Positions 1,871 to 61,552 of a stretch of DNA of 61,552 nt are shown one piece after another. The position numbers and the translations under genes were made by a program. Position 1 is the first letter of the stretch. Each line of letters opens with the position of its first letter. Where the stretch lies: positions 1-61,552 of the IMG/VR virus record IMGVR_UViG_3300027706_000010; one strand, 5' to 3'. A model generated the notes under the pieces. That model was not told where the DNA came from, made no database searches, and saw only the letters and a list, made by a program, of their open reading frames with translations. This stretch comes from a virus (lineage: Duplodnaviria > Caudoviricetes).

Positions 1871-1905
1871 TTGGATGTCTCCTTTGTGTTTCTCTTGATG
1901 TTCTT

Positions 1906-1997
1906 AGTATAGCAGATGTCTCTATGTTTGTCAAGCTTTTTCTATGTTTTATTTGGTGATATGAAGGATTGACATTTTGAGACAAGGATAGTATAAT
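1906..1997. promoter_or_regulatory. Divergent sigma70-type promoters
   Basis: Plus strand TTGACA(1969)-17-TATAAT(1992), perfect consensus; minus strand TTGACA(1934)-17-TATACT(1911). Confidence 0.85.
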
Positions 1998-2033
1998 CTT
2001 TATGGTAGCATAATCTTAAAGGAGGACATTTGA

Positions 2034-2288
2034 ATGTCAGAGGAACAGTATATCTCGTTTGAAGAAGCTGAAGATAAGCTTGGAGTCACCAGGGCGACGC
2101 TTCACTACTATATGCGAGAATTAAAGATTGAGCGTTATAAGTTTCCGCTTGATAAGAGGGCGTATATGAAGCTGTCTGATTTTGAGCGGATACAGGCGGC
2201 GAAAGGTGCGGCAAGTCGAAGAAGTGGGCCGACAAACGGCGATCAAGCAGCAAAGGAGGAGTCGCATGCGAAAACAGCAGCAAGTTGA
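2034..2288 (+). CDS. Small HTH DNA-binding protein (excisionase/MerR-like)
   Basis: ISFEEAEDKLGVTRATLHYY HTH; strong RBS AAAGGAGG. Confidence 0.7.
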   Translation: MSEEQYISFEEAEDKLGVTRATLHYYMRELKIERYKFPLDKRAYMKLSDFERIQAAKGAASRRSGPTNGDQAAKEESHAKTAAS

Positions 2289-3288
2289 ATCCATCGAGGA
2301 GATGACCGGTGAGGCACTGATTGCGCAATTGCGGCTGTCGAAAGACCTGCAATTGGCCGCGAGGTTGCTTTCCCGTGAGCAAATTCGATTCCTGGTGGAT
2401 CTCTATTATATCCTCCAGGAGAATCGCATCCGTGCGCAAGCCCAGGTGCGCACGGCAGGGGAGGAGCCAAACCTGCTCATTTCCTGGACATACGATCTCT
2501 ACCGGCAACTTGAGACGGATGTAAGGCAGGCGCTCTTGCACTTTGCTGAGGGGCATATTCCGGGCCAATGGGCGCTTAGCGTTAAGGGGATCGGCCCGGT
2601 GCTTGCGGCGGGCCTCATCGCCCGCATTGACATCACCAAGACCCCAACGGTAGGCGCCCTCTGGCGCCGGGCGGGCTACGATCCGACCTCACACTGGTTG
2701 GGGAAGGGAGATGCGCAGAGGATCATGAAAAAGTACCCCGGTCCCCTCTCTGATGAGGTGTTGGTCGAGATCGCCCGTGAAACCGGGCGCAACGCCTCCC
2801 GGCTGTACCAGGCATGCGTTGATCCTGACACCGGCGAAGTTTCCCGGGCTGCTTTGACCGCGTTGCTGGCGAAACGTCCCTGGGATGCGGCCCTCAAGCG
2901 ATTGTGCTGGCTTGCCGGGCAATCCTTTGTCAAATCGAGTGGCCGGGAAGGATCCTTTTACGGGCCGCTCTACAGGCAGAGGAAATTATACGAAATGCAA
3001 AAAAATGAGGAGGGAGCCTATGCGGATGAGGCCGCGCGGGTGCTCAAAGAGAAGTTCTATGGAAAGGACACAGAAGCGTATAAATGGTATGCGCAGGGGA
3101 AGTTGCCCCCGGCCCACATCCAGGCCCGGGTGGAGAGATGGGTAGTCAAGCTTTTCTTGAGCCACCTTCATGCGGTCATGTATGAGGACTATTTTGGGAA
3201 GCCTGCGCCCAGGCCCTACATCATCGCTATCGGAGGACACCAGGATTATATCGAGATCCCGAACTGGCCCATATTATCCAACAAATAG
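2266..3288 (+). CDS. IS110/Nop-domain RNA-binding protein without nuclease domain (TasA-like)
   Basis: Coiled coil LVDLYY..Q..RIR, IS110-type SVKGIGPVLAAGLIA and LWRRAGYDP motifs, C-terminal HIQARVERWVVKLFL; no N-terminal DEDD RuvC and no catalytic SG serine motif; RBS AAAGGAGG before ATG 2266. Confidence 0.75.
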   Translation: MRKQQQVESIEEMTGEALIAQLRLSKDLQLAARLLSREQIRFLVDLYYILQENRIRAQAQVRTAGEEPNLLISWTYDLYRQLETDVRQALLHFAEGHIPGQWALSVKGIGPVLAAGLIARIDITKTPTVGALWRRAGYDPTSHWLGKGDAQRIMKKYPGPLSDEVLVEIARETGRNASRLYQACVDPDTGEVSRAALTALLAKRPWDAALKRLCWLAGQSFVKSSGREGSFYGPLYRQRKLYEMQKNEEGAYADEAARVLKEKFYGKDTEAYKWYAQGKLPPAHIQARVERWVVKLFLSHLHAVMYEDYFGKPAPRPYIIAIGGHQDYIEIPNWPILSNK

Positions 3289-3310
3289 ACCTCATAGGTC
3301 TCAAAAACGC

Positions 3311-3571
3311 GAAGTGAACCAATAGCTGCATGAGTACCAAGTTACGTGAGTGAGCCATTGACTGAATGCACGCCTCTCCTGGGGCGCACATTCAGTCAGA
3401 ATGGGCGTGCGAGCCACAGCAGCAATATGTACCATCGAGAGGGGGCGATCCAATCAAGAGAGCGAACCAATGAGTTCGAGCAGCATCCAACGGCAAAGCG
3501 TGAGCCATTTTACTAGTGTGTACCATCTGCTCAGAGCGAACCAGGCTTTAGGCGAGTAACCAATGGAGCAG
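3311..3571 (+). ncRNA. TIGR-like tandem dual-repeat guide array
   Basis: CCA at 3319, 3337, 3355, 3414, 3432, 3450, 3467, 3487, 3505, 3523, 3541, 3560 (mostly 18-nt spacing); repeats alternate between (a/c)g(t/c)ga(a/g)CCA and t(g/a)(a/t)gtaCCA around unique 9-nt spacers. Confidence 0.75.
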
Positions 3572-3606
3572 AGAATCAGGGGATCCTGATTCTCTGCTCC
3601 ATTGGT
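3559..3606. repeat. Perfect 22-bp inverted repeat ending the array
   Basis: accaatggagcagagaatcagg-ggat-cctgattctctgctccattggt. Confidence 0.95.
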
Positions 3607-3611
3607 ATACT
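3603..3611 (+). promoter_or_regulatory. Extended -10 promoter candidate for csf operon
   Basis: TGgTATACT 24 nt upstream of GTG 3635, with GGAGG RBS between. Confidence 0.5.
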
Positions 3612-3634
3612 AGAGCCAAAAATCGGAGGCCCTG

Positions 3635-4513
3635 GTGTCTTTTCCTCTTTCCTGGCTCTATCATCAATATGGCGGCTCCTTCCCGGTGGGAAGTGAGCGC
3701 TGCTACCTCTGTGGAGCATCCTGTGCCGCGACATATACCGTTGCGGCAGGCATTGCCGATACCTTCAATTCTCATTTTCTGGCAGTGTGCCCTCATTCGC
3801 CCTATCTTTGTGCTGCCTGCGCCTGGTACCTCGATGGCAAAGCGGACCATCCCGAATTTCGCAAGATGAGCCTGGTCGTTACCCGGCAAGCGTGGCGCAA
3901 TTGGGAGCGGGCAACTATGAAGCAGGATATTGCACGCTGGCTTGCCGGTGGTTTGCCGGAGGATGCCTACCTTGTGGTATCGCTGAGCAAGAAAAAGCAT
4001 ATCCTTCTGCAAGCGCCACTCAATGTAAGCAGCAGCTCCACGCTTGCGGTGCAGATCGAGGAACAGGTCGCCTATTTGACTGCGAGCGTGTGGGGAGAGA
4101 TGGATGCTGCATTTATGGCTCTGCTCGAATTAGGACACGGGAAAGGCGAAATTTTGAGTGGCGCATTGCATCCATCCGTGCTGCGCAAGCATGGCAGGAT
4201 TGCCGAGGCCCTCGCGCTCTCACGACAATTAGAGCGGTGGCGTGCCTCATCCTCTCTTGAGTTGCTGAGTTATGTTACAATCACGGAAAACAAGGAGGAG
4301 GCACCCCATGATGGACATAGAGGAAGAGGTGATCCCCCCGTATCGGCAGGAACTCGAACGGCATCAGATCGCGGCGGCGTTTCTGCGCGCCGTCTACAAC
4401 GGGATCGAGTGGGACGAGTGGGGGAAATATCGGATGACGATCTGGACGATTCTAGAGACGACGGTAGCCAATGCGGCCCGTATGTCTGCCAGTCTGCTCT
4501 CTTTCCAGAGTAA
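3635..4513 (+). CDS. csf1: Type IV CRISPR large subunit Csf1 (Cas8-like)
   Basis: N-terminal zinc finger CYLCG...CAAC, KKHI motif, first gene of a csf2/csf3/cysH operon. Confidence 0.75.
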   Translation: MSFPLSWLYHQYGGSFPVGSERCYLCGASCAATYTVAAGIADTFNSHFLAVCPHSPYLCAACAWYLDGKADHPEFRKMSLVVTRQAWRNWERATMKQDIARWLAGGLPEDAYLVVSLSKKKHILLQAPLNVSSSSTLAVQIEEQVAYLTASVWGEMDAAFMALLELGHGKGEILSGALHPSVLRKHGRIAEALALSRQLERWRASSSLELLSYVTITENKEEAPHDGHRGRGDPPVSAGTRTASDRGGVSARRLQRDRVGRVGEISDDDLDDSRDDGSQCGPYVCQSALFPE

Positions 4514-4715
4514 GATCGCGCAGATGATGCACGTGGCCGAGATTGGCCGCGATGATGCTGAGCGCCGTTATGTTGCCGATGTGCTCGCGGGCCGCTACGG
4601 CGATCCTGATGCTATTCTTGCGGCGCTGCGGCGTGATCCGCAGGTCTGCGTCATGCTCATGCGCCTCCAGAAAGATGAGGAGAAAGCCTATGCCAACCAG
4701 CAGCTATCGTTTTGA
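4308..4715 (+). CDS. cas11: Type IV-B small subunit (Cas11-like)
   Basis: About 135-aa helical protein between csf1 and csf2; RBS AAGGAGGAGG. Confidence 0.65.
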   Translation: MMDIEEEVIPPYRQELERHQIAAAFLRAVYNGIEWDEWGKYRMTIWTILETTVANAARMSASLLSFQSKIAQMMHVAEIGRDDAERRYVADVLAGRYGDPDAILAALRRDPQVCVMLMRLQKDEEKAYANQQLSF

Positions 4716-5643
4716 GGGAATCGCACGCGCGCTCAGCGCTGTGTCGCATGTAGGGGACAGCGCCGGGGGCACAACTGCCATCTTTCGCCGGGAGAAGGTT
4801 CTGGCTGATGGGCGGGTGATCGAGGTCCCGATTCTCAGTGGGAATGCCTTTCGCGGGCAACTCCGGGATACTGGCATGCGTTTTATGCTGCGCGAGCTGG
4901 GCAATCCGCAATTATCCCCGTCGGCCTTCCATTTCTTGACCAGCGGTGGAGCGCTGACAAAGGATGCGGGGCGCGGTCTTGATATCGGCCAGGCGCGGCG
5001 CCTGCGACAGCTTATCCCCCTTGTGGGCGTCTTTGGGGGTGCCTGTGGACGGCAAATCCTCGAAGGGAAACTTCGGGTCGGCAAGTGGTATCCGATCTGC
5101 CGCGAGTTGCGCTCGTTCCTGCCGCCGCACTATCGCGACATGCCCGAGGCTGACGTCAGCATCTACGAGATGACGGACCTGCACAGCTTCACGCGTATCG
5201 ACGATGCCAGATCTGAGCGCTGGCAACAATTCTTGCCGGAGGCGGAGCGCGCGCATTTGGAAGCGCCAAAGGTGAGGCAGGCAAAGGATGGCACCGAGAT
5301 CGCTGAGAAGGCGGGCACGGCGCAGCAGATGCGTTACTCGCAGGAGGTGCTGGTCGCTGGTACGCGCTTCTACTGCTGGCTACAACTTTGCGATGTGACC
5401 GATCTCGAATATGAAGCCTTTGCCTCAGCGCTCGTAGAGTGGAGCCGTGCGCCTTTTGTTGGTGGGCAATCGCGGCATGGCTGCGGCGAGGTGGAGCTGC
5501 GCTTTGATAAGTGGCTCTCGGTCTCGCCGCTCTCGCGTGCGGCTTCTGAGATGGCGGTAGGGCTGCCTGCCGGGCAGGCATACGTTGAGCATCTGCATAA
5601 AGAGCGTGATGCCATTCTGCATGCCCTCAAGGAGATCGTGTGA
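4690..5643 (+). CDS. csf2: Type IV Cas7-family backbone Csf2
   Basis: RAMP motifs ALSAVSH, VPILSGNAFRGQLRD, PLVGVFGG, G-rich loop VGGQSRHGCG. Confidence 0.85.
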   Translation: MPTSSYRFEGIARALSAVSHVGDSAGGTTAIFRREKVLADGRVIEVPILSGNAFRGQLRDTGMRFMLRELGNPQLSPSAFHFLTSGGALTKDAGRGLDIGQARRLRQLIPLVGVFGGACGRQILEGKLRVGKWYPICRELRSFLPPHYRDMPEADVSIYEMTDLHSFTRIDDARSERWQQFLPEAERAHLEAPKVRQAKDGTEIAEKAGTAQQMRYSQEVLVAGTRFYCWLQLCDVTDLEYEAFASALVEWSRAPFVGGQSRHGCGEVELRFDKWLSVSPLSRAASEMAVGLPAGQAYVEHLHKERDAILHALKEIV

Positions 5644-6401
5644 TGCGTCCTCTGCGAGTCGTCGCGCGCCTGGCTGGTTCCATCGCTCTTGCGCGCGCGG
5701 AAGATATCGCGCTTGATGGCCTGCTGGCCTATCAGATGCTGCGGCGCCATTTTGGCGAGGAATTTTATCATCTCCCGGATGCGAAAGAGCATCTGGTCTT
5801 CGCGGATCTTCCGCTGGAACGGCGCGGCGCGCCGTCGGCGCGTATTGCCACGCTCCAGACCGGGGATACCTGGATGCAGCCGGGGCGAGGGATTGTCGAT
5901 GAAAGTTTCTGGTACTGGGCCTGCTCCTCAGCACAGATCGAGGTCCAGGGATACGCAACGCAGTACTGGAACAAACGGTTTGATACTCAGGCCGCGCTCT
6001 CCGATCATATCGACTTTGGCGGCAAAGTCGAGAAGGTTCTGATTGAGCAGGGCCGCTATAAGAGCTACCATATGCCGCTGCCAACGCTCGTTACAGATCG
6101 CGTCGTCTGGTATGCCTATGGCGATCTGGAGAGGGTCAAAGACCTCTTGCAGGATGTAATGAGTCTGGGGAAAAAGCGCAATTACGGTAATGGCATGGTG
6201 ATCGCCTGGAGTATTGATCCGATGGATGAAGACTGGTCTACCTGGCGCGGTGATCGCCTGATGCGGCCCGTTCCCGGACCGCTGCTTGCTGATATAGAGT
6301 GGAATGGACCGTTCAATATGCAGTATATTGCCTATCGCGCGCCGCAGTGGCACCCGGCCAATCAGGCGTTGTGTGTTGTGATAGGAAAACGGTATGCATG
6401 A
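5640..6401 (+). CDS. csf3: Type IV Cas5-family Csf3
   Basis: LDGLLAY, LPL, G.YKSY..P, WYAYGD and LGKKRNYGNG G-loop. Confidence 0.8.
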   Translation: MMRPLRVVARLAGSIALARAEDIALDGLLAYQMLRRHFGEEFYHLPDAKEHLVFADLPLERRGAPSARIATLQTGDTWMQPGRGIVDESFWYWACSSAQIEVQGYATQYWNKRFDTQAALSDHIDFGGKVEKVLIEQGRYKSYHMPLPTLVTDRVVWYAYGDLERVKDLLQDVMSLGKKRNYGNGMVIAWSIDPMDEDWSTWRGDRLMRPVPGPLLADIEWNGPFNMQYIAYRAPQWHPANQALCVVIGKRYA

Positions 6402-7182
6402 GGCAGAACGACTCTCGCACCAGTTGCATGCTCGTTTGCCCACATTTGCCCGTAAAGTGGAGCAGGCGCAAACGAGTATTGAGGAGGCACTGGGCTGCAT
6501 GCATGCGCCCTATGTCGCTTTTAGCGGCGGGATTGATAGCACGGTCCTGCTCGATCTGCTCTTTCAGGCAGGATATCATCTCCCTGTGCTGTGGGGAGAT
6601 GACGGCTACGACTATCCTGAATCTCTGACATTTCTTCGAGAGAGCGAGCAGCGGTATGGCTTTCACCTTCAGCGTATTCGCTGCATGCAGCCCTGGCGCG
6701 ATTGGTGCCTGGAGATGGCCCGACCAGATCTTGCCGAGGATCCTGCGGCGCGTGCCTCCTGGGGGAATCCTCCTCTGTGGGATGCTACGTGGAACTCGCT
6801 CAAAGATGCCTCTTTGCATGCATATGACGGTGTATTTCTGGGCTTGCTCGCTTGTGAGAGTCGAGGGCGCAGATATGCGCTCAAAGGCGGTAGACGCGTA
6901 GTCTATCAGGTACAAGGCGAGGGGGGCATGTGGCATTGCAGTCCGCTCGCGCAGTGGAGCAAACGTGACATCTGGGCATATGCCATAGCACGCAATCTTC
7001 CTTATAATCCCGTCTATGATCGCCTGGCTGCCTACGGTATCCCCTGCGAGCAGCGCCGTGTTGCCCCGCTCACCTGCTTTCGCGTCGTGCAGTACGGGAG
7101 TCATGTATGGCTCAAATCTGGCTGGCCCGATCTCTACAATTCTCTTGCTGGTACGTTCCCCCGTGTGCGCTCCTCCGTCTAG
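6394..7182 (+). CDS. cysH: CysH-like PAPS-reductase-family protein (type IV-B associated)
   Basis: PP-loop YVAFSGGIDS, ES..R, PLAQWSKRDIWAY, LPYNPVYD. Confidence 0.85.
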   Translation: MHEAERLSHQLHARLPTFARKVEQAQTSIEEALGCMHAPYVAFSGGIDSTVLLDLLFQAGYHLPVLWGDDGYDYPESLTFLRESEQRYGFHLQRIRCMQPWRDWCLEMARPDLAEDPAARASWGNPPLWDATWNSLKDASLHAYDGVFLGLLACESRGRRYALKGGRRVVYQVQGEGGMWHCSPLAQWSKRDIWAYAIARNLPYNPVYDRLAAYGIPCEQRRVAPLTCFRVVQYGSHVWLKSGWPDLYNSLAGTFPRVRSSV

Positions 7183-7257
7183 AAGCTCATTTTGCGATCC
7201 TTCGGCCCACCCACTGATGAATTTTTGCGAGTGCACGGAAACTCGTGGCAAAAGGGC

Positions 7258-7287
7258 TTGACAAAGCATATATCTCTGATATATACT
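7258..7287 (+). promoter_or_regulatory. Sigma70-type promoter
   Basis: TTGACA(7258)-18-TATACT(7282). Confidence 0.7.
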
Positions 7288-7335
7288 AAAGATATCAAAG
7301 ATATACGCTTTCTGAGAGAAAAGGAGGACACAGAA

Positions 7336-7566
7336 ATGGCACAGATGACATGGAATGAGACCGCGTATCAGTATGAGTTTGCATTGCCCAATGGGGATCT
7401 GCTCACGGTATCGGGCGACGAGTTCGCCGAGGCTGTGTACGAGGCCGAGCAGGGAAATCCTGAAGCATTTGAAGAGATGCTTGAGCCGATGCAGTGGATG
7501 GCGCTCGTGGGGGATAATCCCAACGTCGAGATTATCCCCGCCCATGAGCGGGGGGTGTGCCTGTGA
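7336..7566 (+). CDS. Small acidic hypothetical protein
   Basis: RBS AAGGAGG before ATG 7336. Confidence 0.6.
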   Translation: MAQMTWNETAYQYEFALPNGDLLTVSGDEFAEAVYEAEQGNPEAFEEMLEPMQWMALVGDNPNVEIIPAHERGVCL

Positions 7567-7922
7567 CAGATATTCTTATCCGGGATATCTCGGAAGAGGT
7601 AGCCGCCCGGCTGTCTGAGAAGGCAGCCGGGGAGGGTATGGATCGGATGTCATGGCTGCGTGCGCAACTGGTCCGACTGGCGGAAACGCCAGTTATCCGC
7701 AAAAAGTATACCCTCCGTGCATTTGGCCCAGGTGGGGCCTATGCGCAAATTACGCGGCGTTGGGCTGATGGCACCATCCAACGTGGTGCCAGAAACTGCT
7801 CACAGGAGCAGTTCGAAGCATATCAGAAAGCTGCGCTCTATTGTGAGCGCAATGAGATCGGCGACTATGAGCAAGCATATAAGCTATTGGCCGATCACTT
7901 TGAGGAAGTGATCGCGCTTTGA
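7563..7922 (+). CDS. Ribbon-helix-helix (Arc/FitA-like) DNA-binding protein
   Basis: DILIRDISEEVAARLSEKAA..G N-terminus. Confidence 0.6.
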   Translation: MTDILIRDISEEVAARLSEKAAGEGMDRMSWLRAQLVRLAETPVIRKKYTLRAFGPGGAYAQITRRWADGTIQRGARNCSQEQFEAYQKAALYCERNEIGDYEQAYKLLADHFEEVIAL

Positions 7923-8562: not shown

Positions 8563-8723
8563 GTTGCTTTCTGCCACGTTGTTCTACTTGTTTGTATTCT
8601 CTGATATTTTCATATAGTACTATGAAGTTGTGAAGAGTCTAGGTAAATTGATGAGACTATGATATACTGTACAGGCATCCACACGGATGCCTATTTCTTT
8701 TGTCTCTGGATGGTTGTTTTCGT

Positions 8724-10175
8724 ATGCGAACGTTTAAGTATCGGCTCTATCCGACAAGGCGACAACAGGATGCCCTGCGATGGATTCTTGCCCGGTGTTG
8801 CGAATTATATAATGCTGCGCTCCAGGAGCGTCGTGATGCCTATGAGATGTGTGTCAGGCGGCATCCTGGCTATTATGATAAAGAGACGCGCCGAAAACAG
8901 ACGAGAGCGTATGCAATTACCAAATATGCTCAATCCAGAGAACTGACTGAAATTAAACATGAGATTCGCCCGGAGTATCAAGAAATTGGCGATCATGTTC
9001 TGCGCAATGTTTTGCAGCGTATTGATCTTGCATTTCAAGCGTTCTTTCGACGGGTGGCAGAGCGAGAGAAACACGGGGGTACAGGCAAAGTTGGGTATCC
9101 TCGTTTCAAAAGCTCCAGGCGGTATGATTCCTTTGCCACGGATAGCGCCTGTAAAATCCGCGATGGCCGTCTTGAGGTCAAGGGTGTGGGATGGGTTAAA
9201 GTCAAGCTCCATCGCCCGCTGTCAGGTGAGATTAAAACCTGGACGGTCAAACGGGAAGGGGAGCACTGGTATGTCTGTATCGTGTGCGATCAGGCGGCGC
9301 AAGAGACACCGCTCCCCTTCAATGGTGAGGCGGTTGGTATTGATCTTGGACTCCTGCATTTTGCCACGCTTTCGACCGGGGAAACGATTGAGAATCCGCG
9401 TTACTTTCGGCAGGCTGAGAAGAAGCTGGCCTTGCACCAGCAGGCGCTTGCGCGTAAGAAACGCAAAGATAAACGAACCGGATGTAAAGGGCATCGGCGG
9501 GAACGCGCGGTGAAACTGGTTGTCGCAGCGCATCGCAAGATCCGGAATCAGCGCCGCGATTTCCAGCACAAGGCATCGCGCCAGCTAGTGAATCGGTATG
9601 GCGCAATCGTATTCGAGGAGCTACAGCCTGCGAATCTCAGCAGGCGCCCAAAGGCGAAACAGGCTGAGGATGGGCATTACTTGCCCAATGGGGCCTCGGC
9701 AAAATCAGGACTCAATAAATCTATCTTAGATGCTGGTTGGGGCACGTTTGTACAGATGTGTGCGTACAAGGCGGAAGGGGCTGGTCGTGCGCTTGTGCAA
9801 GTCGATCCCAGAAATACCAGTCAGATCTGCTCAGGATGTGGAGAAATAGCCCATAAGAAGGATCTCAGCGAGCGCTGGCACGCATGTGCATGCGGGTGCT
9901 CGCTGGACCGCGACCATAATGCGGCGATCAACATTGTGCGGCGTGGGTTGGCATCTCTGAACCATGCAGATCTGAATTATCCAGCATTCCGCGAGGCAGA
10001 AAGCGGTGCTTTTCTCAAGCAGGATGCCTCGCAGCACACCGATGGGGGCGGGCCGCCCCTGCGCACCCGCAAGGGTGCGTGCACCCGCGAGGGTGCGTGC
10101 GCCCGCAAGGGCGCACTCAAGTCCTCTTCTTCTTCTCATGCTGCCTCGCAATTGGCGCTGTGGCCTGGCCTGTAA
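8724..10175 (+). CDS. tnpB: TnpB/Cas12f-like RNA-guided nuclease adjacent to CRISPR array
   Basis: MRTFKYRLYPT start, GYPRFK, RuvC-I GIDLG, RuvC-II VFEEL, zinc finger CSGC..CACG, RuvC-III DRDHNAA; about 65-aa low-complexity tail; no tnpA nearby. Confidence 0.9.
   Translation: MRTFKYRLYPTRRQQDALRWILARCCELYNAALQERRDAYEMCVRRHPGYYDKETRRKQTRAYAITKYAQSRELTEIKHEIRPEYQEIGDHVLRNVLQRIDLAFQAFFRRVAEREKHGGTGKVGYPRFKSSRRYDSFATDSACKIRDGRLEVKGVGWVKVKLHRPLSGEIKTWTVKREGEHWYVCIVCDQAAQETPLPFNGEAVGIDLGLLHFATLSTGETIENPRYFRQAEKKLALHQQALARKKRKDKRTGCKGHRRERAVKLVVAAHRKIRNQRRDFQHKASRQLVNRYGAIVFEELQPANLSRRPKAKQAEDGHYLPNGASAKSGLNKSILDAGWGTFVQMCAYKAEGAGRALVQVDPRNTSQICSGCGEIAHKKDLSERWHACACGCSLDRDHNAAINIVRRGLASLNHADLNYPAFREAESGAFLKQDASQHTDGGGPPLRTRKGACTREGACARKGALKSSSSSHAASQLALWPGL
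9990..10170 (+). ncRNA. Structured RNA overlapping tnpB 3' end (omegaRNA/tracrRNA-like)
   Basis: Three tandem GNRA hairpins (10061-80 GCAA, 10081-96 GCGA, 10097-116 GCAA), closing stem gcgaggcag/ctgcctcgc, partial anti-repeat at 10128-10166. Confidence 0.6.
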
Positions 10176-10196: not shown

Positions 10197-10750
10197 CTTG
10201 CAAGGCATGATAAGGAAGATGGGGATAGGCCACTCGACAAAACTTAGGCAGCTAAAAGTACCGGTAATACCTTGCAAGGCATGATAAGGAAGATGGGGAT
10301 AGGCCACAGGAAGATTTTCAAAGATCCCGAACGGATGCCGCAGACCTTGCAAGGCATGATAAGGAAGATGGGGATAGGCCACACAGATTAAGAGCGGTGT
10401 CACACTGCCACTTCTTAACTTGCAAGGCATGATAAGGAAGATGGGGATAGGCCACGATTTAGACCATTGCGTTGACGAAGATGGGAACATCTTGCAAGGC
10501 ATGATAAGGAAGATGGGGATAGGCCACGCTCCGGTGGTATTCGCGCCCTGCACGGATATGCCGAACTTGCAAGGCATGATAAGGAAGATGGGGATAGGCC
10601 ACCCGTTCAATCCCCGTACCGGCGCTGGCGCTAGAGGACCTTGCAAGGCATGATAAGGAAGATGGGGATAGGCCACCCGTTCAATCCCCGTACCGGCGCT
10701 GGCGCTAGAGGACCTTGCAAGGCATGATAAGGAAGATGGGGATAGGCTAC
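10197..10750 (+). CRISPR. CRISPR array, 8 repeats and 7 spacers
   Basis: 37-bp repeat CTTGCAAGGCATGATAAGGAAGATGGGGATAGGCCAC at 10197, 10271, 10346, 10419, 10491, 10566, 10640, 10714 (last ends CTAC); spacers 35-38 bp; spacers 6 and 7 identical; strand inferred. Confidence 0.97.
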
Positions 10751-10755
10751 CACCT

Positions 10756-11425: not shown

Positions 11426-11845
11426 ATGGCAAAAGAGGTTATCACGCGTGATGTGAACGCGGCGCAGCGTGCGATGCAGGCCATCGAACTGCGCAAGCAG
11501 AAGCTTTCTTATGATGAGATTGCTGCCAGGTGTGGCTATTCGGGCCGTAGCGCGGCGCGTAAGGCCATCATGCGTGAGCTTCAGAGAGTCGCCGTGCGTA
11601 ATATTGAGGAGTTGCGCACGGAAGAGCTTGCCATTCTCGATGCCATGCATGCTGAATGCTGGCAACTGGCGATGGATCGCAAGAATCGGGGTCGGCTTTT
11701 TGCGATGGACCGATTGCTCCAGATCAGTAAAGCGCGTAGGGAACTAATGGGTCTCGATATGGGGCCGGAGGATCACATCGCGCAGCAGAACTATACCAAA
11801 CGGGTCATCCTCACCCACGAGGAGGTGGGTAGTGCAGGCCATTGA
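11426..11845 (+). CDS. terS: Terminase small subunit (HTH)
   Basis: LRKQKLSYDEIAARCGY HTH; overlaps terL start. Confidence 0.7.
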   Translation: MAKEVITRDVNAAQRAMQAIELRKQKLSYDEIAARCGYSGRSAARKAIMRELQRVAVRNIEELRTEELAILDAMHAECWQLAMDRKNRGRLFAMDRLLQISKARRELMGLDMGPEDHIAQQNYTKRVILTHEEVGSAGH

Positions 11846-13142
11846 AGAAACCTATACGGCCTATGGGGCCTGCTCTCGCCTTTTCACCTGCACTGCGCCG
11901 GAGGTAATGCTAGATGGTCCAGCCGGGACCGGCAAATCACGCGCGAACCTCGAATATTTGAACTACTGGGCAACCGAATATCCTGGCTGCCGCCTGTTGA
12001 TGGTGCGCAAGACGCGCCGCTCGCTCACTGAATCGGGCATGGTGACACTTGAGCAAAAAGTGCTGCACCCGGCGCAAGGGGTGTATTTTTCCTCTACAAA
12101 GCAGCAATATCAGTATCCCAATGGCTCGATCATTGCCGTTGGCGGTCTCGATAAACCCTCAAAGATCATGTCCTCGGAATGGGACATCATCTATGTGCAG
12201 GAAGCTACGGAACTCTCGCTCGATGACTGGGAGTCGTGCAGTATCCGGTTGCGCAATGGGAAATTGCCGGTGCAGCAGATGATTGGAGACTGTAATCCAG
12301 GTGCGCCCACGCACTGGATCAGGCAGCGTGCCAGCGAGGGCACGTTATTGATGCTGGAAACCCGGCATGAGGATAATCCGCTACTCTTTCATCGGGATGG
12401 CACGATGACGGCGGAGGGCGAGCGTTATCTTGAGAAGCTGGATCGGCTGACTGGTGTGCGGTATGCTCGCTACCGGCGTGGGTTATGGATTGCGGCGGAA
12501 AACATGGTATATGAAGATGCCTGGGACCCGGCGCGCAATGTCGTAGATCGGCAGCCGATTCCGAAGGAGTGGCCGCGCTATCTTGCTATCGACTTCGGGT
12601 ATACTCATCCGTTTGTATGCCTGTGGGCTGCGCTTGATTCTGATGGCCGCTTGTGGGTATACCGGCAGCTGTACAAAACAAAGCAGTTGGTAGAGGATCA
12701 CGCGCGCGAAATTCGGAAATTGTCGAACTGGGGCGCGCCGGGGGGTGATCCTCTGCCCCGGGCTATCATCTGCGATCACGATGCCGAGGATCGCGCGACC
12801 TTAGAGCGGCACCTGGGACTTACGACGATACCGGCCTATAAAAATGTGAGTGCGGGCATTCAGGCCGTAGCCTCACGGTTTCGTGTGGCCGGTGATGGGA
12901 AGCCGCGTATCTTGATTGTGCGTGACTCGCTGGTCCAGCGTGACCCAGATCTGGCGGAAGGAAAGCAGCCAACGTGTCTGGAAGAGGAGCCAGAGTCGTA
13001 TGTGTGGGATATACGGCAGGGGATGAAACATGGTGAGCAGCCGGTGAAGGAGTCGGATCACGCGCTTGACGCGCTCCGGTATCTGGTCGCACACCTGGAC
13101 TTGAGACCAACGGATGTCCGTTACTCCAGTAGAGTGTATTGA
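11832..13142 (+). CDS. terL: Terminase large subunit
   Basis: Walker A DGPAGTGKS, Walker B IIYVQEA, CNPG, nuclease LAIDFG and DHALDALRY. Confidence 0.92.
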   Translation: MQAIEETYTAYGACSRLFTCTAPEVMLDGPAGTGKSRANLEYLNYWATEYPGCRLLMVRKTRRSLTESGMVTLEQKVLHPAQGVYFSSTKQQYQYPNGSIIAVGGLDKPSKIMSSEWDIIYVQEATELSLDDWESCSIRLRNGKLPVQQMIGDCNPGAPTHWIRQRASEGTLLMLETRHEDNPLLFHRDGTMTAEGERYLEKLDRLTGVRYARYRRGLWIAAENMVYEDAWDPARNVVDRQPIPKEWPRYLAIDFGYTHPFVCLWAALDSDGRLWVYRQLYKTKQLVEDHAREIRKLSNWGAPGGDPLPRAIICDHDAEDRATLERHLGLTTIPAYKNVSAGIQAVASRFRVAGDGKPRILIVRDSLVQRDPDLAEGKQPTCLEEEPESYVWDIRQGMKHGEQPVKESDHALDALRYLVAHLDLRPTDVRYSSRVY

Positions 13143-25274: not shown

Positions 25275-28200
25275 CTACCTCACTTTCAGTCTATGGCCTG
25301 AATGGGGCTTCGGCAACTCTCCCAGGAGCGCATACGCTTGCCACTGCCACCGGCGGTACCGGTGCGAATATCTCGACGAAAGTTGGGACGGCCACCGGGT
25401 GGGGTGAGATTCAGGGCAGCAGTAATCCCTGGGGGGCACTTGGCAGTATTGGGTCTCAAAGTGGGGGAGGCTGGCTCCTCGACAGTACGCTATTAGAGGG
25501 ACAGGAGCTTATCGCGGGGACGTGGGGCGCGTCCATCCGATTATCAACAAGTGCTGGCTCTATCACGGCCACCATTACAATGCGAGCCAGCAAATACAAT
25601 GCTACCAGCGCAACCTATACGACTATTGGCTCGCTCACCAGTACCAGTGTCACGATCAACACGACACTGACCACCTTTACCCTCTCCTCGGCAAATTTAC
25701 CGGCGATGATCTTTGCCACCGGTGATAAGCTCTACATCGATGTGTGGCTTGATGTTACGACGAATAGCACCGGGTCTAGTACCGCGACAATTAACTGTTC
25801 CGTATCCTCGACGACAACCGGTCTTGCCGGGCGTGTGGAGATGGATACAGCAGGCTATCAGCCCTACCGGCAAAAAGATTTTAGTTTGCGGGCACGGATC
25901 GCGCAGGCAAAAAATTTCGCGCTGCGTGCACGGGTTGCACAGACGCGGAACTGGTCTTTACGCGCTCGCGTTCAGAATGCTGCCAATAGCCGTGCCAAAG
26001 ATTTCGCGCTACGCGTCAGAATCGCGCAATCAAAAGATTTTCGGCTGCGTGCCAGATTAGCGCAATCAAAAGATTTTAAGATGCGCGCCAGACTGGCCCG
26101 TGCGAAAGATTTCGCGCTGCGGGCTGCTATCCAGTCACCGGGTGTGCTGGCTACCGACACGTTTATTCGGGTTAATCAGTCAGGATGGGGCATTGCCAGT
26201 GACGGGGAAACGTGGGCCTATATTGACGGCAGTCAGGCATCGAGCATCGTGAGTGATGCCGGGCAAATCACCAGAGGCACCGGCTCAGCGCTGTTTGTGC
26301 TTGGCAGCAAGACGGCTGCCGCTGTCGATCTCAAAATTCGGGCATACATCACCGGCGCCGCCGGGGACCGCATGGGCGTGCTTGCCCGACTGCAAAACAC
26401 CACCACGTATTATCGGATGGCCTGGGAGGGTGGCGGCAATCTCAAGATCGAGAAGAGCCTGGCCGATACCGTGACAACGCTGGCCTCAAGCGCGTACAGC
26501 GTCACCTCACTGCAGTATTACTGGATACGCGCGCAGATTTATGATGTGGCCTCCGGTACACAGATCAACGCGAAAATCTGGCAGGATGGCACAACAGAGC
26601 CGTCCAGTTGGACGGTGACGACCACCGACATCAATCCGCTCACCGGCGCCGGGCAATTTGGCGTCTATCTCTTTACCGGCTCATCGTCCAATGTCGTCTC
26701 CGTCAACAATTTTACCGCGCTCTCGCTCACCAATCCGCGTGACTTTGCCTTGCGAGCACGTATCGGCGGGCGTGGCCTGCAAGATATTGCGCTGCGAGCA
26801 CGAGTGGGCGGCTTCCCACACTGGAAAGATTACGCGCTGCGCGCCCGAATGCGGGGCCTGGGCATCCGTGATTTCGCGCTGCGAGCAAGTCTGGACAATG
26901 CCGTCATCGCGCTGCCTGCCTACACGCCCGGTGCACTTTCTGTGACGATCAGTGGCACGACCTACCCGATTCTGGAAGGCTCGCTCAAGATCAGCGAGGA
27001 TATCACCGGACGCTCAACCTGCTCGTTCACCCTGCTCGACCCCACCGGTAACGTGCATTTTCGTTTTCGGCAGCCAGTTATCGTCACGCACAGTCAGCGC
27101 GGCCAACTTTTCCGAGGCTTTGTCGATACGCCGCAAGAACAAAATTTGCCACCCAATACAGCCAATGAGATTCAGATATCATGCATCGATGAGCACTGGC
27201 TAGCTGACAAACGCGCCTACGAGGGAGATGAATTCGTCAACCAGTATGCCGGTGATATTGCCACGTTCTATGCGCAAGAGCTTGCCCAGGATGGTGTATC
27301 GCAAGGCTACGCCATTGACCATGACACGACTCAGGCTGATTTTAGTGACGGCACGCTTTCAAATGTGGTCGCAGCGGCCAATATTGGCTCGACAAACATT
27401 GGAGATGGTGATCTGGAACTTGCGCCAGCCGGGACGGCACTCACCATCTTAGAAGGGACGCTCGGTGACTTTTTAAGTGGCACGCTGACAAACACGCAGG
27501 CCAATGGCCTCTATGGTCCTGATCTGAATAGTGCAGGCTATCTGAGCTTGCAGGTTCAAAATGGCATCAAATTGACCGGCAGCGCGACGATTGCGGGTGG
27601 GGGCAATCTCTATTCCTATGTCAAGATCTGGCAAGGGAGCTACACGATCCAATCCGGGGACGCGCTTTCGTATCGTGTGTGGATTGCCTCGACATCTCCT
27701 GAAATCAAAAGTGCCGTAGATATCGTCTTCACGGATGGCTCGACCTTGCGCGACTCGTCCTGTATCGATCAGCAGGGTATTGGCGCACACCCCAACAATG
27801 ATCTGTCCTTCTTTGCCTCAGACCAGTGGTATACGCGTAACATTCCCCTTGCATCTCTCGCAGGCAAAACAACGGCGTATGTGACCGTGGCGTTCGAAGG
27901 AGATAGCACCGGGGACTATGCCGCGTATTTTGAAAACATTCAGCTTGGCAGTACGACAATTTTTAACGGCAGCCGCTTAAATGTCTCGCCAGCGCAACAG
28001 ATGCAAAATGCTGGCTATACCAATGTACAGGTCGTGGTACAAGGCTTATTTGAAAAGACAGGATACCGGATCTCACCGGCATACGATCTCTCTGGTGTGG
28101 TGATTGCGCGCTCCTCGCTCATTTCCTGGCAGGATACCACCACGCAAACGGACAATGGCATCTTTGCACTGGCGGCAAAAGGCGTTACCGTTACCGTCGA

Positions 28201-41818: not shown

Positions 41819-42511
41819 TCATTTCTCTTCATATTCAGCAAGCACCGCAACACGCTCATCCATCCACCGTGAAATTTTTTCAATGATCTCATCCCCCGCC
41901 ATTGCCGCCGACCACTCCGCCGCCCACGCCGACTCCGCCGACCACGCCGACCACGCCGACCACTCCGCCGACCTTGCCGCCCTTGCCGTCGACCACTCCC
42001 CCGCCATTGCCGTCGACCACTCCGCCGCCCACGCCGACTCCGCCGCCATTGCCGCCGACTCCGCCGCCATTGCCGCCGACCTTGCCGACTCCGCGTTTTC
42101 TTCTGTTGGGGCAGCAAGCCATCGTCTTGCAGCATCTATCGCGGCACGCGGGCGCTTGTCATCTGGATACATCTTTTCAAAGTTTTCTAGCACAAGTTCA
42201 GCGGCAAAGATAGACAATGCAACACTATCGTGTTTTTGCCAGCGCCAGACACGCACCAGGCGCATCTTTTGCCAGGCTTCTTTGTCATCATTGACAATAG
42301 AAGCTCCACTCACTTCGACTTGTGCAAGGATTTCCCCTTGCACATAGGTAAACGCCTGGTAGCACGTCCGCGAACAATGGAAGCCATTTTCACAGATGAT
42401 AAGCTCGTTGTCACGAACGGATTGCCATTCGCCGATGTGCCAGATGCAATCGCCTGATTCTGACCTGATTTCGTTATCAATCAGGCACAAAAATTTATAC
42501 CGCCGCTGCAT
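41819..42511 (-). CDS. Phage protein with Ala/Trp/Ser-rich repeats
   Basis: CENGFH N-domain, DKRPRAAIDAARRW, SAAWAAE repeats. Confidence 0.7.
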   Translation of the reverse strand: MQRRYKFLCLIDNEIRSESGDCIWHIGEWQSVRDNELIICENGFHCSRTCYQAFTYVQGEILAQVEVSGASIVNDDKEAWQKMRLVRVWRWQKHDSVALSIFAAELVLENFEKMYPDDKRPRAAIDAARRWLAAPTEENAESARSAAMAAESAAMAAESAWAAEWSTAMAGEWSTARAARSAEWSAWSAWSAESAWAAEWSAAMAGDEIIEKISRWMDERVAVLAEYEEK

Positions 42512-61427: not shown

Positions 61428-61552
61428 GCGCAGGAGACCCCTGCCTTCAGGCGTGGGGAGGAATGCGCCCTCTCCTTTCTCGTGCTGACAATATCCTGGT
61501 ATATATGATATACTCTCTGTATGGATAGAACAATAATTGTCCAACTGAAGCC
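61421..61552 (+). mobile_element. Left end of a second IS200/IS605/IS1341-like element
   Basis: Hairpin cccctgccttcaggcgtgggg, promoter CTGACA..TATACT, ORF start MDRTIIVQLK at 61521. Confidence 0.65.

What the first reader, a model, noticed from the sequence alone, without database searches (positions are those of the whole stretch)
2266..7182. TIGR-like array directly fused to a type IV-B (csf1-cas11-csf2-csf3-cysH) operon
Seen: the array ends about 60 bp before csf1 on the same strand, and no cas6, cas1 or cas2 is evident in the window. Known: type IV-B loci usually lack CRISPR arrays and their guide source is unresolved. Inference: Tas could target DNA for Csf/CysH, the Csf2 filament could load array-derived RNA, or the two are independent neighbours in a conflict island. 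I do not know of this pairing being described.
Basis: partly seen in the sequence, partly recalled or inferred. Interest (0 to 1): 0.88.

Follow-up and report, generated by a model that had tools for sequence, protein, structure and literature searches.

The report
Phage TIGR-TasA module abutting type IV-B
A soil phage carries a small TIGR-TasA guide-RNA system directly against a complete type IV-B CRISPR-like operon, but comparison with related phages suggests two separate modules that happen to sit together, not one combined machine.

Summary
The window is a complete 61.5-kb phage record. It encodes a nuclease-less Tas protein (2266-3288), a short dual-repeat TIGR array (3313-3561), a 22-bp hairpin, and then csf1-cas11-csf2-csf3-cysH-like (3635-7182). 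No cas1, cas2, cas6 or CRISPR array was found. An independent assembly contig spans the junction.

The pairing is rare elsewhere:
- 2 of 80 type IV-B phage records carry Tas.
- 1 of 80 viral Tas loci and 1 of 80 metagenomic Tas loci carry Csf genes.
- 0 of 119 loci around same-type arrays and 0 of 25 genomic IV-B loci show the pairing.

Three pairs of close relatives differ by presence or absence of one module. One sister locus (L167) keeps tas-TIGR and IV-B as neighbours, separated by an opposite-strand gene and its own promoter. In the window, a phage-typical extended -10 (TGGTATACT, 3603-3611) lies just upstream of csf1.

Best reading (about 0.72): two autonomous modules for conflict between mobile elements, in an accessory island that also holds a TnpB-like gene. 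Functional coupling stays possible (about 0.1). Co-location is well above a naive expectation, and I found no paper describing it. Interest is moderate.

The parts
1969..1997 (+). Promoter-like site TTGACA-17-TATAAT in front of the HTH-tasA-array unit
   Evidence: 12 of 12 consensus matches. A divergent site lies at 1934-1906 on the - strand.
2034..2288 (+). Small HTH protein (excisionase/MerR-like), overlapping the tasA start by 23 nt
   Evidence: phrog_66 at 2.2e-7. Pfam HTH_17 at 0.0016, below its cut-off.
2266..3288 (+). tasA: Nop-domain TIGR-associated protein without a nuclease domain, 340 aa
   Evidence: NF052498 at 165 bits, cut-off 100. PDB sequence hits: 9mty_A at 1.1e-12 (deposited as a transposase IS116/IS110/IS902 C-terminal domain protein) and 21kl_A TasH at 5e-5. 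No HNH or RuvC in Pfam. 1318 homologues at E<=0.001 among 8000 scored candidates.
3313..3561 (+). Dual-repeat TIGR array: 12 alternating edge and loop repeats with about 9-nt spacers (about 4 clean 36-nt units)
   Evidence: CCA chain of 9 against a maximum of 6 in 300 shuffles. Same repeat family as the sister array in L167.
3358..3407 (+). 50-nt interruption of the array carrying a hairpin (arms 3359-3374 and 3383-3398)
   Evidence: pair I3. Fold of 3345-3420: -34.8 kcal/mol, z -3.5.
3559..3606 (+). Terminal hairpin: 22-nt perfectly complementary arms, 4-nt loop, no U tract after it
   Evidence: pair I1. Fold of 3535-3640: -59.6 kcal/mol, z -8.5, 0 of 200 shuffles fold as well. Not listed as a terminator.
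3603..3611 (+). Extended -10 promoter-like element TGGTATACT, partly inside the 3' arm of the hairpin, 24 nt before the csf1 start
   Evidence: TGNTATACT occurs 12 times in the window against 0.62 expected; 0 of 100 shuffles reach 12. The same motif type lies upstream of csf1 in L167 (read).
3635..4513 (+). csf1 (type IV large subunit), GTG start after GGAGG, four invariant Cys
   Evidence: PADLOC typeIV_Cas8 at 9.7e-19. TIGR03114 at 1.2e-5, below its cut-off. Invariant C23, C26, C59, C62 in alignment A4.
4308..4715 (+). cas11-like small subunit. Likely start is the ATG at 4308 after AGGAGGAGG; overlaps the csf1 tail by about 206 nt in another frame.
   Evidence: PADLOC typeIV_Cas11 at 2.9e-12. 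Sequence read.
4690..5643 (+). csf2 (Cas7 of type IV)
   Evidence: PADLOC at 1.8e-74. Best PDB match is Csf2 of the type IV-B complex 7jhy at 3.5e-27, against 1.5e-5 for the Csf2 chain of 7xfz. Homologues start at about residue 50 of the long ORF. ATG at 4690 read.
5640..6401 (+). csf3 (Cas5 of type IV)
   Evidence: PADLOC at 5.4e-47. TIGR03116 at 1.8e-13, below its cut-off.
6394..7182 (+). cysH-like (PAPS-reductase fold) accessory gene
   Evidence: PF01507 at 7.9e-18. SGGIDS PP-loop present and no C-terminal ECGLH-type cysteine motif in the translation.
7258..7287 (+). Next promoter-like site; marks the downstream boundary of the csf unit
   Evidence: TTGACA-18-TATACT, 11 of 12 matches.

Best explanation
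These are two self-contained RNA-based conflict modules lying end to end in the accessory region of a phage genome, not one fused system.

Module 1 runs from the promoter at 1969-1997 through HTH and tasA to the TIGR array. It makes a pre-tigRNA that TasA trims into 36-nt dual-spacer guides. The nuclease-less TasA dimer then binds 18-bp DNA targets, probably on rival mobile elements or the host, and blocks transcription or replication.

The array ends in a 22-bp hairpin. The 3' arm of that hairpin carries the extended -10 of module 2.

Module 2 is csf1-cas11-csf2-csf3-cysH-like, an ordinary array-less type IV-B cassette. Its Csf ribonucleoprotein and CysH-like enzyme act on their own; their biochemical role is still unknown in the field.

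Shown here: the identity of every part, the junction, the rarity and variability of the pairing, and the independent presence or absence of each module in close relatives. Inferred: the transcription units, tigRNA processing, a repressor-type action of TasA, and the lack of crosstalk.
For: 1. Each module is a complete member of its own family.

2. The pairing is rare from both sides.
- Csf2-anchored: a genuine Tas (over the family cut-off) in 2 of 80 whole viral records (these are the best 80 of 143 hits), and in 0 of 25 prokaryote genome loci.
- Tas-anchored: Csf genes in 1 of 80 viral loci (best 80 of 520), in 1 of 50 whole records (only L002-L051 were given), and in 1 of 80 metagenome loci, of which 32 are at least 8 kb.
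- Array-anchored: 0 of 119 loci around GCGAGCCA-type arrays have Csf1, Csf2 or Csf3.
- Relatives of the L096-type Tas: 0 of 23 other loci.

3. Close relatives differ by one module.
- L158 has an IV-B operon 95% identical in DNA to that of L096 but no Tas in its record.
- L016 is syntenic with L042, and its Tas is 84% identical, but its record has no Csf2.
- L082 and L083 have Csf2 75-79% identical to the window's and no tas or array upstream. In L083, csf1 follows a coding gene directly. L083 groups with the window and L167 in the Csf2 tree.

4. The architecture varies among the five co-occurrences:
- window: abutting;
- L167: 1.4 kb apart, with an opposite-strand ORF and promoter region between;
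- L085: convergent, about 2.4 kb apart, with the array on the far side;
- L042: 5.7 kb apart;
- L096: about 6.4 kb apart, with the array upstream of tas.

5. The label 'linked' needs at least 3 changes on the Tas tree and 4 on the Csf2 tree.

6. csf1 has its own phage-type extended -10 and RBS. A TnpB/Cas12f-like gene lies 1.5 kb further on, which fits an island that collects such modules.
Against: - Co-location is far above a naive expectation. The tools counted 520 Tas stretches and 143 Csf2 stretches among about 2.9 million viral contigs. Independent assortment would then give about 0.03 contigs with both. At least 3 were found besides the window, and in all of them the modules lie within 7 kb. 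This null ignores phage lineage, contig length and the clustering of accessory genes.
- The sister locus L167 has kept tas-TIGR next to the IV-B operon. Its Tas is 51% identical to the window's by tblastn (62% over aligned columns). Meanwhile the 10 kb upstream of tas in L167 shows no similarity to the window. The two modules may therefore travel together.
- The hairpin has no U tract, so read-through from the array into csf1 cannot be excluded.
- Nothing here measures RNA loading or protein contacts.
Confidence: 0.72

Rival explanations
1. The TIGR array supplies the missing guide for type IV-B. Array transcripts, processed or not, are loaded onto the Csf2/Cas11 filament, giving the array-less IV-B complex sequence specificity.
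For: - The array ends 74 nt before csf1 on the same strand, and no U-tract terminator lies between.
- The RNA source of IV-B is an acknowledged open question (passages of PMC8175902, and PMC7937560).
- The sister locus L167 keeps the neighbourhood.
- Five contigs hold both modules within 7 kb.
Against: - 78 of 80 IV-B phage records and 25 of 25 genomic IV-B loci have no Tas. A CCA-chain scan found a TIGR-type array in only 1 of those 80 loci and 0 of the 25, though that scan is insensitive: it found arrays in only 13 of 80 Tas loci.
- The nearest IV-B relatives, L082 and L083, lack array and tas.
- In L085 the array lies on the far side of a convergent tas. In L096 it lies 7 kb from csf1.
- RNA bound by Csf in the solved IV-B complex ran at about 55-60 nt, against 36-nt tigRNAs (passages).
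Confidence: 0.06
2. TasA-tigRNA is the DNA-targeting arm and recruits the Csf complex or the CysH-like enzyme as its effector. This would compensate for TasA's lack of a nuclease.
For: - TasA has no nuclease domain.
- Faure et al. wrote that TasA lacks clear associations with other proteins and that its function is less apparent (passages).
- All five co-occurring Tas proteins are short forms, with frames of 283-345 aa.
Against: - The rarity and variable architecture are the same as set out above.
- TasA alone acts as an RNA-guided repressor in a 2026 preprint (passages of 10.64898/2026.09.09.750476), so no added effector is required.
- Tas relatives without IV-B are the rule.
Confidence: 0.05
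3. Coupling exists at the level of expression only. The two modules work separately, but array transcription, Tas processing and the terminal hairpin set the level or the 5' end of the csf mRNA. Read-through from the 1969 promoter, with a hairpin-stabilised csf transcript, would be one way.
For: - The hairpin overlaps the csf1 extended -10.
- No U tract follows it.
- Only 29 nt separate the hairpin from the csf1 start.
Against: - In L167 an opposite-strand gene and a separate promoter region lie between the array and csf1.
- In L083, csf1 is embedded behind unrelated genes.
- Such coupling therefore cannot be a conserved requirement.
Confidence: 0.12
4. The junction is a chimeric assembly of two different elements.
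For: The window is a metagenome-derived record.
Against: - A 4686-nt Logan contig of run X3 spans 1900-4632 without a difference.
- Six runs from three studies hold at least 98% of the sampled words of 1900-7300.
- L167 has the same gene order.
Confidence: 0.01

Closest known systems
Dual-repeat TIGR-TasA systems (Faure et al. 2025, PMC12045711; passages read)
   Same: - A Nop-domain Tas protein without a nuclease.
- An adjacent array of two alternating short repeats carrying CCA (box C) with 9-nt spacers, giving 36-nt units.
- The array ends in a truncated repeat plus a hairpin.
- Phage-borne.
   Different: - The array is short (12 repeats) and irregular: one 8-nt and one 11-nt spacer, two off-consensus repeats, and a 50-nt hairpin insertion.
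- The terminal hairpin lacks a U tract.
- The Tas has an insertion of about 55 aa relative to its sister in L167.
- It directly abuts a type IV-B operon. The paper's main text does not mention such a neighbour; it reports only a ParB-like partner for some TasA.
Type IV-B CRISPR-Cas (csf1-cas11-csf2-csf3 plus cysH-like; Mycobacterium sp. JS623 complex, PDB 7jhy)
   Same: - Same gene set and order.
- Csf2 matches the 7jhy Csf2 best (3.5e-27).
- No CRISPR array, cas6, cas1 or cas2.
- The CysH-like protein has a PP-loop but no C-terminal catalytic cysteine motif, as the review PMC8175902 describes for CasCysH.
   Different: - Phage-encoded, not plasmid-encoded. Phage IV-B is itself not new: one search found 143 viral contigs, and passages of 10.1101/2023.08.24.554615 mention prophages, lytic phages and archaeal viruses.
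- Scores fall below the NCBIfam cut-offs, so this is a divergent branch.
- Here it lies next to a TIGR array.
Fuxivirus type IV-B with a CRISPR mini-array (10.1101/2023.08.24.554615; passages read)
   Same: A virus-borne IV-B locus that, unusually, has a guide-type array beside it. This prompted the idea that a virus-encoded RNA programmes the complex.
   Different: There the neighbour is a two-repeat CRISPR mini-array in an archaeal virus. Here it is a TIGR array with its own Tas protein in a bacterial phage.
Defence or conflict islands that gather unrelated systems
   Same: TasA-TIGR, type IV-B and a TnpB/Cas12f-like gene lie within 8 kb. Each has its own promoter-like element, and their presence varies among relatives.
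   Different: The island is in a phage and is made only of RNA-guided or RNA-binding modules. Whether that is more than chance was not tested.

Membership tests
TIGR-Tas | Tas protein with the Nop-type RNA-binding domain | tested here: met
   NF052498 at 165 bits, cut-off 100. PDB sequence hits to 9mty_A and to TasH 21kl_A.
TIGR-Tas | Adjacent array of two alternating 8-12-nt repeats separated by about 9-nt spacers (36-nt unit) | tested here: met
   12 repeats at 3313-3561. Spacing is 18 nt in most steps, with single steps of 17, 19 and 20 nt and one 50-nt interruption. CCA chain of 9 against a maximum of 6 in 300 shuffles.
TIGR-Tas | Box C (CCA) at the 3' end of each repeat, with a UG (box D) in the repeat | tested here: met
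   CCA ends 11 of 12 repeats, and the twelfth is shifted by one base. A TG lies within the first four bases of 8 of the 12 listed 9-mers (read by eye).
TIGR-Tas | [quoted passage not shown] | tested here: inconclusive
   A strong hairpin (-59.6 kcal/mol, z -8.5) starts inside the last repeat. No U tract follows it, and the terminator scan does not list it.
TIGR-Tas | Array RNA processed to 36-nt tigRNAs bound by Tas | not testable with these tools
   No RNA run holds the locus.
TasA subtype | No HNH or RuvC nuclease domain | tested here: met
   Pfam finds only a weak Transposase_20 match, and the NF052498 match covers residues 40-305 of 340. A 54%-identical homologue, P0004, does carry HNH Pfam domains.
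Type IV-B CRISPR-Cas | Core genes csf1, csf2 and csf3 | tested here: met
   PADLOC at 9.7e-19, 1.8e-74 and 5.4e-47. The NCBIfam E-values are significant but the scores fall below the curated cut-offs.
Type IV-B CRISPR-Cas | cas11-like small subunit between csf1 and csf2 | tested here: met
   PADLOC typeIV_Cas11 at 2.9e-12. No PDB sequence hit.
Type IV-B CRISPR-Cas | Adjacent cysH-like gene lacking the catalytic cysteine | tested here: met
   PF01507 at 7.9e-18. The translation has SGGIDS and no ECGLH-type C-terminal motif. The motif name is recalled; the absence of the cysteine in CasCysH is stated in PMC8175902.
Type IV-B CRISPR-Cas | No CRISPR array, no cas6, no adaptation genes, no DinG | tested here: met
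   No match to PF01867, PF09827 or PF01881 in the record. No CRISPR-like tandem repeat. All ORFs of 3635-7182 are accounted for. DinG and Csf5 models were not searched separately.
Type IV-B CRISPR-Cas | Csf2 closer to IV-B than to other type IV Csf2 | tested here: met
   7jhy (IV-B) at 3.5e-27, against 1e-12 for 11fs 'Cas7c' and 1.5e-5 for the 7xfz Csf2. That 7xfz is a type IV-A complex is recalled, not shown by the call.
   2 of 80, 1 of 80, 1 of 80, 0 of 119, 0 of 25 and 0 of 23 in the six samplings. Close relatives carry one module only.

The most novel reading that the evidence does not exclude
In a small lineage of soil phages (the window and L167), a nuclease-less TasA-TIGR module and an array-less type IV-B cassette have become a working pair. 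Either tigRNA or pre-tigRNA is the natural RNA cargo of the Csf filament, or TasA-guided DNA binding brings the Csf/CysH-like machinery to its target. That would give type IV-B a guide source and TasA an effector. The sporadic extra co-occurrences (L042, L085, L096) would then be independent recruitments of the same partnership.
Probability: 0.1. Interest if true: 0.85.

Novelty: new member of a known kind. Interest (0 to 1): 0.4.

Why it matters
Type IV-B is the CRISPR-Cas subtype whose RNA cargo and function are still unknown. TasA is the TIGR effector whose natural role is least clear. A locus where the two touch is a cheap and well-defined test bed. Expressing about 5.4 kb and sequencing the RNAs bound by TasA and by Csf2 would show whether the systems exchange RNA.

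If they do not, as I expect, the locus still documents three things:
- phages stack several RNA-guided modules (TIGR-TasA, IV-B, TnpB-like) in one accessory island;
- IV-B cassettes and tas-TIGR modules move in and out of related phages independently;
- phage-borne IV-B is common (143 viral contigs found by one pattern search).

Tried and rejected
- Phage GenBank collection: neither the DNA of 2000-7300 nor the Tas protein found a match. A single-protein scan of viral contigs also found nothing.
- Self-targeting: composite 18-bp targets, in both possible spacer arrangements and with gaps of 0-2, gave no site with 2 or fewer mismatches in the window. There were two 3-mismatch sites, about what chance gives.
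- Targets in other loci: 29 spacer pairs from the window, L167 and L096 were searched against 3.4 Mb of fetched loci. One 1-mismatch site turned up, again at chance level. Targets remain unknown. I did not scan the public collections for 18-mers because about one chance hit per pattern is expected.
- The simple CCA-chain detector found arrays in only 13 of 80 Tas loci. It is too insensitive to prove that IV-B loci lack TIGR arrays.
- Expression: no RNA holder was listed for the locus, so nothing can be said about transcription. The contigs laid from X7, X8 and X9 were short, low-depth pieces of the same sequence and added nothing.
- Complex prediction with Csf1 (A4), CysH-like (A5) and Tas (A1, the partner): verdict 'no answer', score 0.00 against a mark of 0.32, controls not folded. 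This is neither for nor against binding.
- Host-phylum genomes: Tas over the family cut-off in 1 of 401 genomes of the phylum of a Chloroflexi MAG that holds an IV-B relative, and in 0 of 3 IV-B-bearing MAGs. That is too few for a co-occurrence test.
- The weak Tas-model hit in L083's record (27 bits) is a 395-aa ORF that reads like an IS110-type transposase. I judged this by eye and ran no family search on it.
- The weak tblastn Tas hit in L121 was not confirmed by the family search (G040, 0 matches).
- First Tas tree: the L096 row was a wrong ORF. The tree was rebuilt. L085 and L096 are long branches whose pairing may be an artefact.
- Supplementary files of papers were closed. The neighbour-gene tables of Faure et al. 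2025 and of the TIGRFinder preprint might list Csf or CysH neighbours that I could not see.

Full report
WHAT THE WINDOW IS. The window is one whole IMG/VR virus record of 61,552 bases, rated 100% complete by CheckV. A large terminase gene lies at 11832-13142, so the finding sits in the left-hand accessory region of a tailed-phage genome. Runs that hold the stretch come from soil and mine metagenomes.

CHECK OF THE OBSERVATION.
- The ORF at 2266-3288 scores 165 bits against NCBIfam NF052498 'TIGR-Tas system RNA-guided endonuclease' (cut-off 100).
- It matches two solved chains, 9mty_A and the TasH chain 21kl_A.
- It has no HNH or RuvC domain in Pfam, so it is a TasA-type protein.
- Downstream, 9-nt repeats ending in CCA recur every 18 nt from 3313 to 3561. 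They alternate between an edge type (AGCGAACCA, TGCGAGCCA, AGTGAGCCA) and a loop type (TGAGTACCA, TGTGTACCA), mostly with 9-nt spacers.
- This is the dual-repeat, 36-nt-unit architecture with a CCA 'box C' that Faure et al. describe (passages of PMC12045711).
- A chain of nine CCA motifs at 17-20 nt spacing compares with a maximum of six in 300 shuffles of the window.
- The array is short and imperfect: one 8-nt and one 11-nt spacer, two off-consensus repeats, and a 50-nt insertion with its own hairpin at 3358-3407.
- It ends in a hairpin with perfect 22-nt arms at 3559-3606. The fold of 3535-3640 gives -59.6 kcal/mol and z -8.5. No U tract follows the hairpin.

After the array come csf1 (3635-4513), cas11 (4308-4715), csf2 (4690-5643), csf3 (5640-6401) and a cysH-like gene (6394-7182).
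- PADLOC type IV models match the first four at 9.7e-19, 2.9e-12, 1.8e-74 and 5.4e-47.
- The best solved relative of Csf2 is the Csf2 of the type IV-B complex 7jhy, at 3.5e-27.
- The last gene has a PAPS-reductase domain (7.9e-18). It has a PP-loop but no C-terminal catalytic cysteine motif, as the review PMC8175902 describes for CasCysH.
- No Cas1, Cas2 or Cas6 family match, no CRISPR-like repeat and no Rfam family occurs anywhere in the record.
- A 4686-nt contig assembled independently from run X3 spans 1900-4632 without a single difference. The junction is therefore real, although that run is flagged as a possible source.

IS THE PAIRING REPEATED ELSEWHERE? I sampled from both sides.
- From the Tas side, viral: an alignment of 27 homologues found 520 Tas-encoding stretches in viral contigs. 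Among the best 80, taken with up to 10 kb on each side, only L042 also has Csf2, Csf3 and CysH-like genes, 5.7 kb downstream. As whole records, 1 of the 50 that I gave (L002-L051) has a Csf2 match.
- From the Tas side, metagenomic: among the best 80 of 376 metagenome hits (32 of them at least 8 kb), only L167 has Csf genes.
- From the array side: 119 viral loci around arrays with the same GCGAGCCA edge repeat were examined. Of these, 90 have a detectable Tas, and none has Csf1, Csf2 or Csf3.
- From the IV-B side, viral: a Csf2 alignment found 143 viral contigs. Among the best 80, as whole records, a Tas over the family cut-off occurs in 2, L085 and L096.
- From the IV-B side, genomic: none of 25 loci in prokaryote genomes, the closest being Chloroflexota MAGs, has a Tas.
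- Relatives of the divergent L096-type Tas: 0 of 23 further viral loci have IV-B genes.

So four other contigs hold both modules, at roughly 1-3% of either family.

MODULES COME AND GO SEPARATELY.
- L158 carries an IV-B operon 95% identical in DNA to that of L096, but no Tas in its 30-kb record.
- L016 is syntenic with L042 at 70-80% DNA identity, and its Tas is 84% identical, but its record has no Csf2.
- The window's nearest viral IV-B relatives are L082 and L083 (Csf2 75-79% identical). Neither has tas or an array upstream. In L083, csf1 starts directly after an unrelated coding gene.
- In a Csf2 tree, L083 groups with the window and L167 (support 97), within a four-member clade that also holds L082 (support 100).
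- The label 'linked' needs at least 3 changes on the Tas tree and 4 on the Csf2 tree.
- The arrangement also differs among loci. In L085, tas is convergent with the operon and its array lies on the far side. In L096, the array lies upstream of tas, about 7 kb from csf1.

THE SISTER LOCUS. L167 is the one case that resembles the window.
- Its Tas is the closest relative found: 51% identical by tblastn, 62% over aligned columns, and sister with support 99.
- Its Csf1, Csf2 and Csf3 are 61%, 82% and 61% identical.
- It has a clean array of about 20 units of the same repeat family.
- There, a hairpin, an opposite-strand ORF and a palindromic divergent promoter region separate the array from csf1.
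- Apart from tas and the csf genes, L167 shows no similarity to the window. Its 10 kb upstream of tas are unrelated.
- This is the best argument that the two modules can travel as a block. It is a single lineage.

TRANSCRIPTION UNITS (INFERRED).
- A perfect TTGACA-17-TATAAT lies at 1969-1997, before the HTH gene and tasA. The next two-hexamer site on this strand is at 7258-7287, after cysH.
- The two-hexamer scan finds nothing between the array and csf1. However, TGGTATACT at 3603-3611 is an extended -10.
- That motif (TGNTATACT) occurs 12 times in the window against 0.62 expected, and 0 of 100 shuffles reach 12. Copies include the divergent promoter at 1906-1914 and a site before the TnpB-like gene at 8660-8668.
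- The same motif type precedes csf1 in L167 (read).
- So csf1 most likely has its own promoter, embedded in the 3' arm of the array's terminal hairpin.
- Read-through cannot be excluded, because the hairpin lacks a U tract.

HOW IT MOST LIKELY WORKS. The locus holds two autonomous modules.
- The first should produce 36-nt tigRNAs bound by a TasA dimer that recognises 18-bp DNA sites through two 9-nt spacers (passages). A 2026 preprint reports that TasA acts as an RNA-guided transcriptional repressor (passages). I found no target for the four clean units in the phage itself or in 3.4 Mb of related loci, so the targets are probably other elements or the host.
- The second is a standard array-less IV-B cassette. 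Its function is unknown in the field. The published ideas are scavenging or sponging of small guide RNAs, and nucleic-acid modification by CasCysH (passages).
- A TnpB/Cas12f-like gene lies at 8700-10175 (1.6e-69). The region therefore looks like an island that collects RNA-guided modules.

WHAT SPEAKS FOR MORE THAN COINCIDENCE.
- With 520 and 143 hits among about 2.9 million viral contigs, independent assortment predicts about 0.03 contigs with both. I saw at least three besides the window, always within 7 kb.
- This null is naive. It ignores phage lineage, contig length, the incomplete pattern-based counts, and the known clustering of accessory genes.
- Tas is also rare in cellular genomes of the likely host phylum: 1 of 401 over the cut-off.
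- I therefore keep about 0.1 for a true functional partnership and 0.12 for coupling at the level of expression only.

LITERATURE.
- 'TIGR-Tas' occurs in 47 papers of the library (mostly seen as a listing only).
- The main text of Faure et al. 2025 contains no 'Csf', 'CysH', 'PAPS' or 'Cas7'. It cites type IV only as an analogy and says that TasA lacks clear associations apart from a ParB-like gene.
- The TIGRFinder preprint contains none of those words either.
- 'tigRNA' together with 'type IV' occurs in two papers. I read passages of one and saw the other only in the listing.
- Virus-borne IV-B is already described, including one with a CRISPR mini-array (passages).
- I could not see supplements.

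VERDICT. Both modules are new members of known kinds. Their direct abutment is undescribed as far as I could search, but probably incidental. The locus is a convenient test bed for whether type IV-B can use foreign guide-type RNA, which justifies a moderate interest score.

Noticed in passing
window 8700-10175 (+), with 10063-10111 and 10566-10751: A 491-aa TnpB/Cas12f-like protein (PADLOC Cas12u4 at 1.6e-69; PHROG 'transposase' at 1.3e-103) lies 1.5 kb after cysH, preceded by TGATATACT at 8660-8668. An 18-nt palindromic unit repeats 2.7 times inside its 3' end. A 74-nt unit repeats 2.5 times (99% matches) at 10566-10751. This is a third RNA-guided-type module in the same 8-kb stretch.
   Followed up: partly
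window, 12 sites (for example 1906-1914 -, 3603-3611 +, 8660-8668 +, 35345-35353 +, 61506-61514 +): TGNTATACT occurs 12 times against 0.62 expected. It is probably the phage's own extended -10 promoter motif, and it marks likely transcription-unit starts across the genome.
   Followed up: partly
window 4308-4513; L082 9562-9797; L083 9592-9815; L167 12654-13213: The csf1 frame runs about 200 nt or more past the end of its conserved domain and overlaps the start of cas11 in another frame. Long overlaps of the two frames also appear in the ORF lists of the three nearest relatives.
   Followed up: no
window 2697-2872 compared with L167 10426-10439: The window's TasA has an insertion of about 55 residues relative to its sister protein. 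The NF052498 match likewise spans 266 residues for 214 model positions.
   Followed up: no
protein P0004: A homologue 54% identical over 96% of the window's TasA carries HNH Pfam domains (PF01844, PF14279). Nuclease-bearing and nuclease-less Tas forms are therefore close relatives here.
   Followed up: no
L167 10937-10999 and 11117-11179; 11353-11370, 11425-11442 and 11479-11496: The long sister array contains internally duplicated spacer-repeat blocks: the same three consecutive spacers appear twice, and one spacer recurs twice exactly and once as a near-copy. This suggests growth of the array by segmental duplication.
   Followed up: no
This edge sequence is therefore widely shared among dual-repeat TIGR arrays and is not specific to this phage.
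   Followed up: partly
window 7557-7922 (+): An ORF with an N-terminal VapB/ribbon-helix-helix antitoxin-like match (NF050181 at 4.1e-9, below its cut-off), followed by a 180-aa ORF with no family match. Possibly a toxin-antitoxin pair just after the csf unit.
   Followed up: no
L082 8655-8675 compared with window 3609-3626: A short similar stretch (CTAGAGCCAA.AATC.G) lies upstream of csf1 in both. In L082 it is about 250 nt upstream. It may be chance.
   Followed up: no
window 41892-42094 and 25997-26092: Imperfect GC-rich repeats with periods of 21-30 nt, and a 36-nt period repeat of 2.7 copies. They are probably within coding regions and are not TIGR-like on inspection.
   Followed up: partly
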